DNA of 52,947 nt from an uncultured Burkholderiaceae bacterium. Lineage in GTDB: Bacteria; Pseudomonadota; Alphaproteobacteria; Acetobacterales; Acetobacteraceae. The position numbers were made by a program, and so were the translations under genes. The stretch is from the NCBI GenBank assembly GCA_964657445.1, contig CAZZVB010000002.1:5179-58125 (forward strand), written 5' to 3'. Positions 30,560-40,225 of the stretch are shown here, one piece after another. The notes beneath the pieces were generated by a model. It was not told where the DNA came from, did not search any database, and saw nothing but the letters and a program-made list of their open reading frames with translations. Each line of letters opens with the position of its first letter. Position 1 is the first letter of the stretch.

Positions 30560-32497
30560 TCAGTCGTCGAGGAATGAACGCAGCTTACGGCTACGGCTCG
30601 GATGCTTCAATTTACGAAGCGCCTTGGCCTCGATCTGGCGGATACGCTCGCGGGTGACGTTGAATTGCTGACCCACTTCCTCGAGCGTATGGTCGGTGTT
30701 CATGCCGATCCCGAACCGCATGCGCAGCACACGCTCCTCGCGGGGCGTGAGCGACGATAGCACGCGCGTGGTGGCCTCGCGCAGATTGGCCTGGATCGCA
30801 GCGTCGAGGGGGATGACGGCCGCCTTGTCCTCGATGAAGTCACCTAGGTGGCTGTCCTCCTCATCGCCAATCGGCGTCTCGAGGCTGATCGGCTCCTTGG
30901 CGATCTTGAGGACCTTCCGCACTTTCTCCAGCGGCATCCCGAGCTTCTCGGCAAGTTCCTCAGGCGCTGGTTCGCGGCCGATCTCGTGCAGCATCTGCCG
31001 GCTGGTGCGGACCAGCTTGTTGATCGTCTCGATCATATGGACCGGAATACGGATCGTCCGCGCCTGGTCCGCGATGGACCGGGTGATCGCCTGGCGAATC
31101 CACCATGTGGCGTAGGTGCTGAACTTGTAACCGCGGCGGTATTCGAACTTATCGACCGCCTTCATCAGCCCGATATTGCCTTCCTGGATCAGGTCCAGGA
31201 ACTGCAACCCGCGGTTGGTGTATTTCTTAGCAATGGAGATCACCAGGCGCAGGTTCGCCTCGATCATCTCCTTCTTGGCGCGGGCGCTGTCACGCTCGCC
31301 GCGACTGACCGTTGTGTAAACCCGGCGGAATTCAGCAATCGGGAGCCCGGCATCCTGCGCCACCGCGCCGATCATGGCGCGAAGCTTGGCCGCTTCCTCA
31401 AAATGCTTGGCCGTGAACGTCTTCCAGCCGCGACCGCTCAAGTGGGCTACGCGCTCCATCCAGTTCGGGTCCAGCTCGTGGCCGCGGTATTCCTTCAGGA
31501 ACTCGTCGCGCGGCACCTTTGACTGCTCGCCCATGCGCAGCAGTTGGCCCTCGAGCTGGTTCAGCCGGGTGCTGAGCTGCTTGAGCTGGGTGACCAGTTC
31601 CTCGATACGATTGTTGTGCAGGCGTACCTGCTCCACGCGGCCGACCAGTTCCTCGCGCTGCTTCTCGTAGCTTTTTTCAGACCGGGCGTTGATCTCCTCG
31701 CCCAGGGTCATCGTTTCCAGCCGGCGCGACTGGACCTTATGCAGCTTCTTGTAGAGCGCCTCGATCTCCTCGAAGTTGGCGAGAACCTCGGGCTTCAGCT
31801 TCTCCTCCAAAGCCGATAGCGACATGCCGGGGCCTTCGCCCTCTTCACTGTCGTCCTCCGGCTCAGCCGGCTCCGCACCCTCTGCCTCGGCCCCTTCCGC
31901 CAGCGCTTCGGGGGGCGGGGCGCCGGCGCCCTGAGTTGCCTCCAGGTCCACGATGTCACGCAACAGCATGCGGCCAGCCTTCAGCGCGTCATGCCAGGCG
32001 ATGATGGCGCGGAAGGTCAGCGGGCTTTCGCACAAACCGCCGATCATCATGTCGCGGCCGGCCTCGATCCGCTTGGCGATGGCGATCTCGCCCTCGCGCG
32101 ACAGGAGCTCCACGGAGCCCATTTCGCGCAGATACATGCGCACCGGGTCGTCGGTACGGCCAAGGTTGGCCTCATCCACGTTGCCGGTGGGCTCGGCTTC
32201 CTCGGTCTCCTCGTCCTTCTCGGCCTTGGCGGGTGCGGCCTCGCCGTCCTCGGCTTCCTCGCCCTCGACGACCTGGATGCCCATCTCGCTGAGCATGGCC
32301 ATCACGTCCTCGATCTGCTCAGAACTGTTATGTTCCGGCGGCAGGACTGCGTTCAGCTCGTCGAAGGTGATATAGCCACGCTCCTTGCCGCGCGCGATCA
32401 GCCGCTTGACGGCGGCTGCGTTGGTGTCGAGCAGCGTCGTGTCGGCGTCCTGCTCGGCGGTCGCAGTTTCGGCAGATGCGGCGGGCTTGGTCGCCAT
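30560..32497 (-). CDS. rpoD: RNA polymerase sigma factor RpoD
   Basis: [56 protein letters not shown]. Confidence 0.99.
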
Positions 32498-32525: not shown

Positions 32526-34316
32526 TTAGGCCTCACCATCATCGACCTGGGCATCACGCGACAGCGCGTCCCGGGCCGCGCATAGCGCGACCAGCCGCTC
32601 CTGCGTCGCCGGGTCTGGCGAACGCTCGAAGGCGGCCCTAGCAGCGGCCACCTCTTCCTCCAGGCGAGGCCGGTTGAGCAATCCGAAGAAATGCCACCAG
32701 CCAACTTCTGCCTCCGCCGGCATCGCACCCGGCCCGGCGCAAGCCGGCAACGGCATCGGGCGGTCTGCCAGCACGAGTCTCGCCATTGTGGAGTGTCCGG
32801 ATACCGCGAGGTGGTTCATGAGACCCGCCGAGTCAAGCTCAGAGGCCGAATCATACCAATCAAGAATTGCATCGCGCAGCGAAACGAGCCCTGGTGTGAG
32901 CACTAGGCTGGACAGAGCTTCCGCGACATCGTGGATCAACGCAGGGTGGTTCAGCAGGATGGCGAGCATGGCCCGGTGCCGCTCGGCATTGGCCTCCCCA
33001 CTCTCGACCGGATTGCGTTGCATCGGCGTTGCGCGGGGTGCCCCGGCCTTCTTGCCGCGCCGGGTGGACTCGAAGAAGCGGTCGCGCAAAGCGGTGCGAT
33101 ACTCGTTGGACAATGCCTTGTCGGTGATGCGGGCGGCAGCGGCGTCCAACCGGGCGCGCAAGGCGGCGCGGGCTTCCGGCGTATCGCCGGCGAACCCCTC
33201 CCGCAGAAGGTCGAACAACGCCATGGACAAAGGCCGCCGGCTCGCCAGAACGGCCGCGAAGGCGGCCGCGCCCCGGCCGCGGACCAGCGTGTCCGGATCC
33301 TCGCCCGGCGGAAGTGTCGCCAGGCACAGCGTTCGATCGATGGCGATCAACGGCAGCGCCACTTCGGCGGCCCGTGCGGCCGCGCGCGCACCCGCTGCGT
33401 CGCCATCGAAACACAGTGTCGGCGCATCGGCCAGGCGCCAGATTTCCTCGAGCTGGCCGGCGGTCAGGGCGGTGCCGAGCGGAGCAACCGCGCCGGTGAA
33501 CCCGGCCTGGTGCAAGGCGATCACGTCCATGTAGCCCTCGGCCACGATCACGCCGTGTGGCGACTTGCGGGACCCTTCACGGGCGAGGTCGAGCGCATAG
33601 AGCGTGCGGGACTTGGAATAGACCGCCGTTTCCGGTCCGTTGATATACTTCGGCTTGACGTCCCCAAGCGCCCGGCCGCCGAAGCTGATGGTTCGCCCGC
33701 GACGGTCGCGGATCGGGAACATAACGCGATTGTAGAACAGCTCCCGCGCGCTGCCGTCATCACGCGATTGCATGAGACCAGCCTCTGCCATGCGTGCCGG
33801 AGGAATGTCGGACCGGCCAAGTTCCGCCGTCAGGTCGCCACGCCCATCGCCGGACCAGCCCAAGCCAAACCGGTCGATCGTCTCATCGCTCAGCCCCCGG
33901 CCGCGTAGGTAGGCGAGCGCCTCCCGCCCCTCGCGGCCGTGCAAGCGCCGGGTGAAGCTGGCGGCGGCGAGGTCCAGCACCCCGGTCAGGTCCAGCCGTT
34001 CGCGTTCCGCTTCCACGGCCTGCGGCCAGGGTTTGGGCACGTCGAGGCCGGCTTCGCCCGCCAGGCGCTCCACCGCCTCGATGAACCCGGCGCCGTCGCT
34101 GTTCATGACGAAGCCGATGGCGTCGCCATGCGCACCGCAGCCGAAGCAGTGGTATCCGTCATCGTAAACGTAGAAGGACGGCGTCTTCTCGCCGTGGAAC
34201 GGGCAGCAGCCCTTCCAGGACTTGCCCGACCGCGCGAGCTTGACCTTCCGCCCGACCAGGGCGGCCATCGGGGTGCGGGCCCGCAGCTCGTCCAGGAACG
34301 CTGGCGGAAGCGCCAT
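32526..34316 (-). CDS. dnaG: DNA primase
   Basis: CPFHGEKTPSF zinc finger, KYINGPET, EGYMDVI, CFDGDAAG, DPD. Confidence 0.98.
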   Translation of the reverse strand: MALPPAFLDELRARTPMAALVGRKVKLARSGKSWKGCCPFHGEKTPSFYVYDDGYHCFGCGAHGDAIGFVMNSDGAGFIEAVERLAGEAGLDVPKPWPQAVEAERERLDLTGVLDLAAASFTRRLHGREGREALAYLRGRGLSDETIDRFGLGWSGDGRGDLTAELGRSDIPPARMAEAGLMQSRDDGSARELFYNRVMFPIRDRRGRTISFGGRALGDVKPKYINGPETAVYSKSRTLYALDLAREGSRKSPHGVIVAEGYMDVIALHQAGFTGAVAPLGTALTAGQLEEIWRLADAPTLCFDGDAAGARAAARAAEVALPLIAIDRTLCLATLPPGEDPDTLVRGRGAAAFAAVLASRRPLSMALFDLLREGFAGDTPEARAALRARLDAAAARITDKALSNEYRTALRDRFFESTRRGKKAGAPRATPMQRNPVESGEANAERHRAMLAILLNHPALIHDVAEALSSLVLTPGLVSLRDAILDWYDSASELDSAGLMNHLAVSGHSTMARLVLADRPMPLPACAGPGAMPAEAEVGWWHFFGLLNRPRLEEEVAAARAAFERSPDPATQERLVALCAARDALSRDAQVDDGEA

Positions 34317-34317
34317 C

Positions 34318-34770
34318 TCAGCCGGCCAGGCGGGCTTTCACCAGCGGCGTTGCCCGAGACATGTCCAGTGCGGCTGCGTGCTTCGCCTTCAGCGCGGCCA
34401 TCACCTTCCCCATGTCCTTCGGCCCAGTGGCGCCGGTTTCCGCCACGGCCGCCTCGACGGCGGCTTTTACCGCGGCATCGTCCATCTGCTGCGGAAGGAA
34501 ACCTTCGATGACGGCGATCTCCGCCTCCTCCTTCGCAGCGAGCTCGGGGCGGTTGCCTTGGCGATAGAGCTCCACCGACTCGCGGCGTGATTTCACCATG
34601 CCGCGCAGGACGGACATGACGGCATCGTCGCTCAACGGATCAGCCGGGCGGGCGGCGATATCGGCGTCCTTCACCTTGGCCAGGATCATCCGCAACGTGG
34701 AGGTACGCGCGGAATCGCCCGCCTTCATGGAAGTCTTCAACGCGTCGGTGAAATCGGTTCGCAGGGTCAT
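34318..34770 (-). CDS. GatB/YqeY domain protein
   Basis: MTLRTDFTDALKTSMKAGD, KSRRES, FLPQQM, DMGKVMAALK; directly upstream of dnaG. Confidence 0.92.
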   Translation of the reverse strand: MTLRTDFTDALKTSMKAGDSARTSTLRMILAKVKDADIAARPADPLSDDAVMSVLRGMVKSRRESVELYRQGNRPELAAKEEAEIAVIEGFLPQQMDDAAVKAAVEAAVAETGATGPKDMGKVMAALKAKHAAALDMSRATPLVKARLAG

Positions 34771-34780
34771 GGGAGGCTTT

Positions 34781-35003
34781 TCAACAGAGGGGAAGTCCGA
34801 GTTGACCGGCAAGGCAGCCAAACAAGCCGTCCGCCTATTTCTGCGCCACACGCGGAGGCGTCGAAATGGCAACAGCCTGGCTGCGCTTGGTGACAGCCGC
34901 TTCCTTGACCTCCCCCGGAACAAACCCGGTCAAGAAAGTCGAGGCAGGTCGCCTTGAAACCAGTCGCCGAAATCGTCTGCATCTCACGATCATTAGTCGT
35001 CAT
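34781..35003 (-). pseudogene. Decayed Phd/YefM-family antitoxin
   Basis: ISATGFKATCLDFLDRV; skipping one base in the G5 run (34912-34916) continues as GEVKEAAVTKRSQAVAISTPP, then an in-frame TAG (34835-34837), then LFGCLAG. Confidence 0.7.
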
Positions 35004-35028
35004 CGTACATGACCAGCTCTGCCTGCAT

Positions 35029-35064
35029 TTGCAATGGGAAGTTTTTTCCCACATAAAGCCGGCA
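35029..35064 (+). promoter_or_regulatory. Putative sigma70 promoter of carA with a palindromic operator in the spacer; probably leaderless
   Basis: TTGCAA (35029-35034)-N17-CATAAA (35052-35057); the spacer is TGGGAA-N5-TTCCCA; ATG 35064 sits at the expected +1 with no SD. Confidence 0.55.
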
Positions 35065-36413
35065 TGCTCAGCGTGGACGAGATCTTAGCGCGGCTTGGCG
35101 GCCCCGACGCAGCGGCAAGGCTCACCGGCGTCGGCTTGGAAGCCATCCGCAAGTGGCGGCAGACCCGGGCCATCCCCTCCAAGCACTGGTCGGCCGTGGT
35201 CGCCGCGACCGGCCTGGCGTTCACCGACCTGCAACCCGACCAACGGAGCGCCGCTATGTTCGACACCCAGTCCAGTCCTCCGGGGGCCACCGCCGCATTG
35301 GTGCTGGCGGATGGCAAGGTGTTTTGGGGCCGCGGGTTCGGCGCGTTCAGCGACGGGCGAGTCGGCGAGCTGTGTTTTAACACGGGGATGACCGGCTATC
35401 AGGAAACGCTGACCGATGCGTCCTATGCCGGGCAGATCATCACCTTCACTTTCCCCCATATCGGCAACGTGGGCACCAACCCTGGCGACATGGAGGCAAT
35501 CAACCCGGCCGCGCTGGGCCTGATCGTCAAGCAGGACGTGACCGAGCCCTCCAATTGGCGGTCGATACAGCCGCTTGATGGCTGGCTGAAGGTTCAGGGC
35601 ATGCCGGGCCTGGCCGGCGTCGATACGCGGGCGCTGACCCTGCACATCCGCGATGGCGGTCCCCCGAGCGCGGTCATCGCTTTCCCAGCCGACGGCAGGC
35701 TCGACATCGCGGCGCTGCAGGCGCAGGCCGCGGCGTGGCCGGGCCTGGAGGGGATGGACCTGGCGAAGCAGGTCTCGTGCACGCAGAGCTACGAGTGGGA
35801 CGAGGGTACGTGGTCGTTCCCCGGCGGCTTCGAGCGGCAGACCGACCTGCGGCATCATGTCGTCGCGGTCGATTACGGCGCCAAGCGGAACATCCTTCGC
35901 TCACTCGCGCAGGCGGGGTGCCGCGTCACAGTGGTCCCCGCCGAGGCAACGGCCGAAGATATCCTTCGCCATAAGCCGGACGGCGTGTTCCTGTCCAACG
36001 GACCCGGTGATCCGGCGGCCACCGGCACCTACGCAGTCCCCGCGATCCAGGGCGTGCTGGACGCCAACGTGCCGGTGTTCGGCATCTGCCTTGGCCACCA
36101 ATTGCTGGCGCTGGCGCTGGGGGCCAAGACCTATAAGCTCGACCGCGGTCACCGCGGCGCTAACCAGCCGGTGCAGGATCTCGCGACCGGCAAGGTCGAG
36201 ATCACCAGCCAGAACCACGGCTTCGCTGTCGCCGATGACAGCCTGCCGGACGGGGTGCGGATCACCCACACCTCCCTGTTCGACGGCAGCAACGAGGGGA
36301 TCGCATGCGAGGCCCGGCGAGCCTTCAGTGTGCAGTATCACCCGGAAGCATCCCCAGGGCCGAGCGACAGCGCGCATCTCTTCCGGCGGTTCACCGCCAT
36401 GATGGCGGGCTAA
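35064..36413 (+). CDS. carA: Carbamoyl-phosphate synthase small subunit with an N-terminal Cro-like HTH extension
   Basis: [44 protein letters not shown]; about 64 extra N-terminal residues ([25 protein letters not shown]...IP). Confidence 0.95.
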
Positions 36414-39751: not shown

Positions 39752-40225
39752 TTGCAGAAATTTCCAATGACCGCGCCTGGCCTTGTGCGTCTGGAGGCCG
39801 AACTGCGCGTCCTGAAGTCGCAGGAGCGTCCGGCGGTGATTCGCGCGATCGCGGAAGCACGCAGCCACGGCGACCTGAGCGAAAACGCGGAGTATCATGC
39901 AGCGCGCGAGCGGCAGTCCTTCATCGAGGGCCGCATCATTGAGCTGGAAGAGATCGTGTCCGGCGCGGAAGTCATCGACCCGTCCAGCCTGTCCGGTGAT
40001 AAGGTGAAGTTCGGCGCGCATGTCCGCTTGGTGGACGAGGAAACCGAAAAAGAGGCCACGTACCAGATCGTCGGCATGCATGAGGCTGACATCAAGCAGG
40101 CCCGGCTCTCCATCTCCTCCCCGCTTGCCAAGGCGCTGATCAACAAGAAAGTCGGAGAGACGGTGTCCGTGCCGGCACCCGGCGGTGATCGCACCTACGA
40201 AATCCTCGCGGTCAGCTTCGGTTAG
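39752..40225 (+). CDS. greA: Transcription elongation factor GreA
   Basis: ARSHGDLSENAEYHAARE, SISSPLAKALI; probable TTG start. Confidence 0.97.
   Translation: MQKFPMTAPGLVRLEAELRVLKSQERPAVIRAIAEARSHGDLSENAEYHAARERQSFIEGRIIELEEIVSGAEVIDPSSLSGDKVKFGAHVRLVDEETEKEATYQIVGMHEADIKQARLSISSPLAKALINKKVGETVSVPAPGGDRTYEILAVSFG

What the first reader, a model, noticed from the sequence alone, without database searches (positions are those of the whole stretch)
35029..35255. Cro-like HTH fused to CarA, with a candidate operator filling a leaderless promoter's spacer
Seen: about 64 in-frame residues precede the normal CarA start region (second ATG 35256, no clear SD) and look like a Cro/YdaS-type HTH. Upstream is TTGCAA-N17-CATAAA, whose whole spacer is the palindrome TGGGAA-N5-TTCCCA, and the ATG sits at the predicted +1. 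I recall a similar uncharacterised domain being noted on Acetobacteraceae CarA and isopropylmalate enzymes (needs verifying). Inference: carbamoyl-phosphate synthase acts as a trigger enzyme repressing its own operon, using a domesticated phage-like repressor and operator.
Basis: partly seen in the sequence, partly recalled or inferred. Interest (0 to 1): 0.78.

Follow-up and report, generated by a model that had tools for sequence, protein, structure and literature searches.

The report
Phage Cro switch fused to CarA
In this bacterium and almost all of its family, the enzyme subunit that feeds arginine and pyrimidine synthesis carries a phage-type DNA-binding domain, and a matching palindrome sits inside its predicted promoter, so the enzyme likely turns down its own gene.

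Summary
Real and well supported, but not bench-tested. CarA (35064-36413) starts with a Cro-type helix-turn-helix (NCBIfam carph-isopro), found in 288 of 300 family genomes. The palindrome GGGAA-N5-TTCCC fills the predicted sigma-70 spacer. It lies upstream of 77 of 81 relatives with the domain and 0 of 39 without it, and it is the only strong site in this genome. A prediction noted before fetching held in part. Four distinct standalone Cro relatives (45-47% identical) carry the same palindrome at the same place, three of them beside cI-like genes. Three Cros of another subfamily with the same helix do not. So a phage promoter-operator-cro unit was likely captured in front of carA. Best reading: negative autoregulation of carAB dosage; metabolite gating is unshown. 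One correction: the second ATG (35256) does have a Shine-Dalgarno site, so a short form may also be made. Related Cro domains cap about 11 other housekeeping proteins in Alphaproteobacteria. The domain is curated, but I found no paper on its function. This scan reported the same system before in another genome (e1-5279604).

The parts
35029..35034 (+). predicted -35 hexamer TTGCAA
   Evidence: sequence; TTG lies just upstream of the proximal operator in 56 of 77 relatives
35035..35051 (.). candidate operator TGGGAA-GTTTT-TTCCCA filling the 17-nt spacer (single copy here; 58 of 81 relatives have a second copy)
35052..35057 (+). predicted -10 hexamer CATAAA (relatives mostly TAnnnT-like)
   Evidence: not found by the strict scan
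35064..35066 (+). start codon at the predicted +1 (leaderless; predicted, not mapped)
   Evidence: 6 nt after the -10; an SD precedes the 5' ATG in only 6 of 79 loci
35064..35231 (+). Cro-type HTH domain (carph-isopro, residues 1-56; recognition helix LEAIRKWRQ)
35232..35291 (+). variable linker holding a GGAG (35245-35248) and an internal ATG (35256), likely the ancestral carA start
   Evidence: low pLDDT at residues 60-66
35292..36413 (+). CarA glutaminase domains (residues 77-449); gene 35064-36413
   Evidence: TIGR01368 437 bits; PF00988 + PF00117
36418..39660 (+). carB, large subunit with oligomerisation and MGS-like domains, 4 nt after carA
39755..40225 (+). greA downstream of carB (start approximate)
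34318..34770 (-). divergent yqeY, followed by dnaG (32526-34316) and rpoD (30560-32497); the native alphaproteobacterial neighbour of carA, standing where a phage cI would stand

Best explanation
CarA carries an N-terminal Cro-type DNA-binding domain that likely binds the GGGAA-N5-TTCCC palindrome between the predicted -35 and -10 of its own gene and would block RNA polymerase, so that carAB expression is likely held steady by negative feedback on the amount of the enzyme. The promoter, operator and cro frame were likely captured together from a lambdoid cI/cro switch and fused in frame to the resident carA in an ancestor of the family. The old carA ribosome-binding site and ATG survive in the linker in about half of the loci, so a long repressor-enzyme form and a short enzyme-only form may both be made. 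Shown: the fusion, the fold class, conservation and position of the palindrome, its uniqueness in the genome, and that the motif travels with the domain rather than with carA. Inferred: binding, dimer formation, repression, leaderless start, dual initiation, and that the signal is protein amount rather than a metabolite.
For: Domain in 288 of 300 family genomes; pN below pS in all 3081 pairs. Operator (at least 9 of 10 bases, motif fixed from the window alone) in 77 of 81 domain-bearing loci, against 0 of 39 domain-less carA loci, 10 of 1503 control windows and 22 of 4050 shuffles; proximal site at -28 to -30 in 55 of 77; second site in 58 of 81, spaced 38-40 bp in 42 of 58. 29 other alphaproteobacterial carA loci have no domain and a best matrix score of 6.2 or less, against 30.5 here. 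No regulon: only strong site in G000; in 40 genomes 47 of 75 pattern hits lie at carA, and the other 28 match the 31 control hits. Motif follows the domain: 4 distinct standalone relatives (45-47% identical, no carA in the locus) have a 9-of-10 site at -27 to -29, reached by 0-1 of 5000 shuffles each; L334 sits opposite an HTH+S24 cI-type gene near an AlpA/excisionase-like gene. The GlmU fusion with helix VDAVKKW is the only one of 60 other loci with this motif; other helices go with other palindromes, TTVQGW with TACGY in 7 of 11 and SAVSNY-type with TTCAY in 6 of 10. Closest solved proteins are Xfaso 1, N15 and P22 Cro. G038 lacks both domain and operator. 18 of 79 loci have no start codon in the linker, so the fusion is obligatory there. 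No second protein of this family in G000; the cognate cI gives only 2 weak matches in 61 genomes.
Against: All evidence is comparative, and family members are kin. G087 has lost the domain yet keeps two degenerate sites (best score 16.2). Three distinct YdaS-type Cros with the same EAVRKW helix use another palindrome (GCAAC-N5-GTTGC), so the helix alone does not fix the site. The only mapped start in a relative (G. oxydans, 24 reads) lies 28 nt inside the domain's frame, not upstream (PMC5756330 supplement rows). PY54 Cro, from a phage related to N15, binds one operator and is thought not to repress its own synthesis (PMC4488713 abstract and passages). In phage switches CI binds the same operators, so the site does not by itself name the binder. 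The 5 palindromes of other helix groups were partly defined on the loci counted.
Confidence: 0.62

Rival explanations
1. Strict trigger enzyme: the fusion represses carAB, but DNA binding is gated by UMP, ornithine, glutamine or CarB through enzyme conformation or oligomer state.
For: Two operators 38-40 bp apart in 42 of 58 two-site loci, with 4 at 50 bp, about one turn more, would suit a large oligomer. CarB keeps its oligomerisation and MGS-like domains. Sister fusions sit on PyrB and ArgB of the same pathways.
Against: In E. coli, UMP favours the heterodimer and ornithine the tetramer (PMC6245113), the wrong sign for avidity-driven repression. This window and its two sampled congeners have one strong site. 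The linker is unalignable, 11-60 residues long, a poor allosteric coupler. Related domains sit on partners with no shared ligand logic.
Confidence: 0.2
2. The fusion binds the sites but mainly activates, or mainly controls the divergent yqeY-dnaG-rpoD promoter, as CI does at PRM.
For: yqeY is divergent in 64 of 79 loci, and the distal site often lies 15-35 nt from a -10-like element on the other strand. PY54 Cro acts on the divergent gene.
Against: The proximal site is fixed inside an optimal 17-nt spacer, while the distance from the distal site to the divergent -10 varies. Two sites persist where yqeY is over 600 nt away (L020, L022, L044). The window has only the carA-proximal site.
Confidence: 0.08
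3. A separate trans-acting regulator (for example a domesticated CI) binds the palindrome, and the Cro domain is vestigial or serves protein contacts.
For: G087 keeps degenerate sites without the domain. The Mic60 fusions show no proximal palindrome (2 of 30, 2.5 expected), so this domain can persist without a visible operator.
Against: The recognition helix is the most invariant part. There is no regulon and no second target. The cognate cI was not found beyond 2 weak hits in 61 genomes with one query. The motif accompanies standalone relatives.
Confidence: 0.06
4. Only the short CarA from ATG 35256 is made; the upstream frame is a conserved but untranslated relic.
For: SD + ATG in the linker here and in 37 of 79 loci; the G. 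oxydans 5' end inside the domain's frame.
Against: 18 of 79 loci have no ATG, GTG or TTG in the linker; synonymous change exceeds non-synonymous change in all 3081 pairs.
Confidence: 0.04

Closest known systems
NCBIfam NF046037 carph-isopro domain
   Same: Residues 4-56 pass the curated cut-off; NCBI already uses the name for such proteins.
   Different: The model output gives only a name. No operator, promoter layout, phage-switch origin or function came up in my paper searches.
All-alpha Cro repressors of phages N15, P22 and Xfaso 1 (PDB 2hin/6on0, 1rzs, 3bd1) and their cI/cro switches
   Same: Best sequence and fold matches; palindrome inside a predicted leaderless promoter, as in standalone relatives; leaderless cro mRNA is documented for PY54.
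   Different: Fused to an enzyme, no cI opposite (yqeY instead), kept vertically across a family, below the Pfam P22_Cro cut-off (20 vs 30.2 bits).
Enzyme-regulator fusions BirA, NadR, PutA, RbkR (trigger enzymes)
   Same: [quoted passage not shown]
   Different: Those use other DNA-binding domains and sense a ligand through the enzyme domain (recalled for BirA, NadR, PutA; stated for RbkR in the passage). Here the domain is a phage Cro captured with its promoter, the target is one promoter, and ligand sensing is unshown.
E. coli carAB control by ArgR, PurR, RutR, IHF, PepA, PyrH
   Same: Transcriptional control of the same operon (PMC6245113 passages).
   Different: There the regulators act in trans on tandem promoters, and in the passages I read CPS itself is not a regulator.

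Membership tests
carph-isopro domain (NF046037) | score above the curated cut-off of 38 bits | tested here: met
   64.1 bits for the domain alone, 59.8 in the full protein
All-alpha Cro family (P22/N15/Xfaso 1) | small all-helical Cro fold with HTH | tested here: met
   AlphaFold2 pLDDT 83, helices 4-11, 14-21, 25-34, 39-49, 53-56; Foldseek ranks 1-9 are all Cro-family chains, TMq 0.55-0.67 but E only 0.08-0.25; profile E 2e-4 to 5e-4
All-alpha Cro family (P22/N15/Xfaso 1) | Pfam P22_Cro gathering score | tested here: not met
   20 bits against 30.2; the 46% identical standalone relative in L334 passes with 34.8
All-alpha Cro family (P22/N15/Xfaso 1) | standalone gene divergent from a cI repressor in a prophage | tested here: not met
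   fused to CarA, with yqeY opposite; met in relatives L334 and L162
All-alpha Cro family (P22/N15/Xfaso 1) | palindromic operator in its own promoter region | tested here: met
   (sequence level only)
All-alpha Cro family (P22/N15/Xfaso 1) | sequence-specific DNA binding and repression | not testable with these tools
   needs EMSA and reporter assays
Trigger enzymes (BirA/NadR/PutA/RbkR type) | DNA-binding domain fused to an intact enzyme | tested here: met
   TIGR01368 above cut-off; GICLGHQ and QYHPE motifs present (their catalytic role is recalled)
Trigger enzymes (BirA/NadR/PutA/RbkR type) | cognate site at a gene of its own pathway | tested here: met
   site only at carA
Trigger enzymes (BirA/NadR/PutA/RbkR type) | DNA binding controlled by substrate, product or effector | not testable with these tools
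   indirect argument against; no direct test
MerR-type spacer-binding activators | over-long (about 19 bp, recalled) spacer and a MerR HTH | tested here: not met
   spacer is 17 nt; no MerR Pfam hit, only a PHROG at E 0.15

The most novel reading that the evidence does not exclude
Alphaproteobacteria have repeatedly captured whole phage promoter-operator-cro units as plug-in autoregulators, fusing them in frame to the first codons of housekeeping genes (CarA, PyrB, ArgB, HisZ, CoaBC, NnrE/D, GlmU, SerA, TorD, a carboxyltransferase, a zinc dehydrogenase, Mic60). Each capture turns an enzyme into its own repressor in one step, with a readable helix-to-operator code, and in CarA a retained internal start sets the ratio of repressor form to enzyme-only form.
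Probability: 0.45. Interest if true: 0.85.

Novelty: new variant of a known kind. Interest (0 to 1): 0.7.

Why it matters
It names a candidate regulator and operator for carAB across a whole family that includes the industrial acetic acid bacteria, and one operator mutation can test it. It is also a traceable case of a phage switch turned into core metabolic control: the likely donor layout still exists beside cI-type genes with the same operator. If the sister fusions work alike, this is a recurrent one-step route to autoregulation, and a natural set of small repressor-operator pairs.

Tried and rejected
Strict promoter scan: no site. Homodimer prediction of residues 1-62: no verdict, used neither for nor against. 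Sequencing-run search: no RNA holder listed, so no reads were laid. Phage-collection tblastn with P0263: no match. Viral scans with P0263, P0283 and alignment A5: no relatives. Domain tree: quick tree only, 68 columns, 7 of 79 branches supported; the L162 row was in the wrong frame through my off-by-one error (also why L162 is missing), so the tree is not used to count origins. It places the GlmU-fused domain among the CarA ones on a long branch, so that case may not be independent. The CarA yes/no label and the linker boundaries came from faulty patterns and were redone. Regulon hypothesis: rejected. MerR-type activation: rejected on spacer length and fold. Of the 12 family genomes without the domain I searched 10 for carA: two have an intact domain-less carA (G038, G087), G164 has a frameshifted domain with both sites, and seven lack an assembled 5' end of carA. 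Within-family helix-to-site covariation (Asp for Glu with CCGGA half-sites in L063, L068) is only 2 cases and is not claimed. Paper searches without a relevant hit; they cover only CC-licensed PMC and bioRxiv, and bioRxiv supplements are closed, so an earlier description cannot be excluded.

Full report
1. Observation. The anatomy is as described: TTGCAA (35029-34), a 17-nt spacer that is the palindrome TGGGAA-GTTTT-TTCCCA (35035-51), CATAAA (35052-57), 6 nt, ATG 35064, and a second ATG at 35256, 64 codons later, all in one 449-aa frame. Residues 77-447 are CarA (TIGR01368, 437 bits) and residues 4-56 are the NCBIfam carph-isopro domain. carB follows after 4 nt, then greA; yqeY-dnaG-rpoD run the other way. 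yqeY lies next to carA in 26 of 29 other alphaproteobacterial loci, so this is the resident carA with something added in front. One correction: GGAG at 35245-48 lies 7 nt before ATG 35256. The strict promoter scan finds nothing, so the promoter is a prediction from conservation.

2. The domain is Cro-like. Pfam P22_Cro and YdaS match below cut-off, and PHROG repressor families match weakly. A profile of 20 homologues finds XPH1, N15 Cro, Xfaso 1 Cro and P22 Cro as its top four PDB sequences. The AlphaFold2 model (pLDDT 83) returns these Cro structures at Foldseek ranks 1-9, with weak E-values as expected for 60 residues. In the full-length model the domain is confident, and the linker (60-66) is not. 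The recognition helix EA[IV]RKWRQ is the most conserved part, and pN is below pS in all 3081 pairs.

3. Distribution. The domain is in 288 of 300 sampled family genomes. I analysed 81 domain-bearing loci besides the window: the 30 best, 41 of the 80 loci, and 10. Six of them are frameshifted or cut in carA. They are top scorers and kin, not a random or independent sample.

4. The palindrome is conserved, placed and unique. With the motif fixed from the window alone, at least 9 of 10 bases match within 200 nt upstream in 77 of 81 loci (all 81 at 8 of 10). The figures are 0 of 39 for domain-less carA loci (distant taxa), 10 of 1503 control windows and 22 of 4050 shuffles. The proximal site starts at -28 to -30 in 55 of 77, with TTG just upstream in 56 of 77. 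A second site occurs in 58 of 81, 38-40 bp away in 42. In the acetic-acid-bacteria branch the whole unit lies further upstream, with a leader. The 29 other alphaproteobacterial carA loci score 6.2 or less on the matrix, against 30.5 here. In G000 this is the only exact site, and the next matrix score is 16.9; the window has a single copy. Over 40 genomes, 47 of 75 pattern hits lie at carA, and the remaining 28 equal the reversed-pattern control of 31. So there is no regulon. Within the family, G038 lacks domain and site. G087 has lost the domain, starts at the old internal ATG and keeps two degenerate sites, which fits recent loss but also leaves room for a trans factor.

5. The motif travels with the domain, not with carA. 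Standalone relatives in genomes show the same layout with their own palindromes: 16 of 25 have at least 5 of 6 symmetric pairs at -33 to -21, against 1.7 expected. A viral contig shows one opposite an HTH+S24 repressor (L162). I wrote down a prediction, then fetched 20 viral and metagenome loci and opened 6 more from genomes. Four distinct standalone Cros of the IPxKHW type (L331, L332, L333, L334 = L335), 45-47% identical to the window's domain and without carA in the locus, have a 9-of-10 site at -27 to -29, reached by 0-1 of 5000 shuffles each. Three of them face a cI-like gene, confirmed as HTH+S24 for L334 and as a weak HTH for L331. Against the prediction as written, three distinct YdaS-type Cros with EAVRKW (L326, L329 = L338, L341) use GCAAC-N5-GTTGC. 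The remaining loci were other helices or other protein types without the site, plus one more CarA fusion that has it. So the subfamily, not the helix alone, predicts the site. No second protein of the family is in G000 (89% complete), and the L334 cI domain gives 2 weak hits in 61 genomes.

6. Two possible starts. In 79 fusions (window included) the linker is 11-60 residues long. 53 have an ATG there, 37 with an SD of -5 kcal/mol or better; 38 of 63 linker ATGs have such an SD, against 182 of 1856 other linker codons. 18 have no ATG, GTG or TTG at all, and only 6 have an SD before the 5' ATG. So the fusion must be made in at least those 18, and a short form is possible in about half. The only mapped start I found is for G. 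oxydans carA: 24 reads, 28 nt inside the domain's frame (PMC5756330; I saw outline data, passages and matching supplement rows). It neither confirms the promoter nor fits it, and that lineage has a leader.

7. The wider pattern. In 401 class genomes, 79 have a match above cut-off. I opened 90 of the listed loci. Family scans identify partners as Mic60/mitofilin (16 of 22 scanned), a carboxyltransferase, PyrB, ArgB, HisZ, CoaBC and TorD, and NnrE/D, SerA, GlmU-like and a zinc dehydrogenase. Several of these domains score below the NF046037 cut-off. Palindromes track the helix: TACGY-N5-RCGTA in 7 of 11 TTVQGW-type loci, TTCAY-N5-RTGAA in 6 of 10 SAVSNY-type loci, and GGGAA in 73 of 79 CarA loci but only 1 of 60 others, the GlmU fusion with VDAVKKW. 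The first two motifs were read off some of the same loci, so those counts are partly circular. One of the 7 and one of the 25 standalone loci (L123) come from G331, an unpublished genome. Against generality, Mic60 fusions show no proximal palindrome (2 of 30, 2.5 expected), the three SerA fusions lack the motif, and the fused group as a whole gives 12 of 34 against 4.5 expected. The domain tree is too weak to count origins.

8. Mechanism. A dimer on a site that fills an optimal 17-nt spacer would exclude RNA polymerase (inference from established repressor behaviour). With one target, its own promoter, the simplest function is negative autoregulation that steadies CPS level, possibly reading CarA not yet bound to CarB. 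Metabolite gating is possible but unshown: in E. coli, UMP favours the heterodimer and ornithine the tetramer (PMC6245113, passages), the wrong sign if oligomer avidity drove repression. A caution comes from PY54 Cro, which is thought to repress cI and not itself (PMC4488713, abstract and passages). I put binding of the site by the fusion at about 0.85-0.9, and the full dosage-feedback reading at 0.62.

9. Novelty. It works like a Cro autoregulatory switch and resembles BirA/NadR/PutA/RbkR fusions (PMC5397151, passages), but it is not a phage Cro in context and not a proven trigger enzyme. The domain is curated. Eight paper searches found no description of the operator or function (listings and abstract starts only). 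An earlier unchecked note of this scan reached the same core reading on another genome (e1-5279604, seen after my main tests); it is not independent evidence. What I add here is the standalone phage relatives with the same operator, the internal start, and the sister fusions. Verdict: real, a new variant of a known kind, interest 0.70.

Noticed in passing
L112-L140, L142-L144 and others (class-level loci): The bacterial Mic60/mitofilin homologue of many alphaproteobacterial families starts with a carph-isopro domain (helix TTVQGW type), ahead of a long linker and a predicted membrane segment. No operator lies directly upstream in most; L113, L304 and L305 show GTACGT-rich stretches.
   Followed up: partly
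L145, L146 (PyrB); L147, L148, L284 (ArgB): Cro-like domains fused to two other arginine/pyrimidine enzymes, each with its own N5 palindrome (TTGCG-N5-CGCAA; TTACT/TTGCT-N5-AGTAA) and a leaderless-looking promoter.
   Followed up: partly
L318-L320 (NnrE/D), L149, L150, L285, L286 (HisZ), L157, L288, L289 (CoaBC), L290 (GlmU-like): Further fusions with conserved palindromes at or near -22 to -29; genome G540 carries two different fusions (PyrB and NnrE/D) with different palindromes.
   Followed up: partly
L204 (G087:C3, upstream of 520641): Clean loss of the Cro domain: the promoter now leads straight into the old internal ATG, and both operators show changes at conserved positions.
   Followed up: partly
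G133:C202:563-579: A perfect operator with an AT-rich centre away from the main carA locus, in a genome with two domain matches; possibly a second copy or contamination.
   Followed up: no
L168/L178 (G064:C25:8796-9174): Two carph-isopro genes in tandem, the first with a leaderless-looking promoter and palindrome.
   Followed up: no
window 34771-35028: The yqeY-carA gap is long here (about 293 nt against mostly 110-200 in relatives), lacks the second operator, and is similar in length and one-site layout to sampled congeners' promoters; its content was not examined.
   Followed up: no
PMC5756330 Table S10, row for GOX_RS02765: The 20-nt upstream sequence with an RBS listed for G. oxydans carA matches neither the annotated nor the 'corrected' start of Table S4; it may mark the internal linker start, which I could not place.
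   Followed up: no
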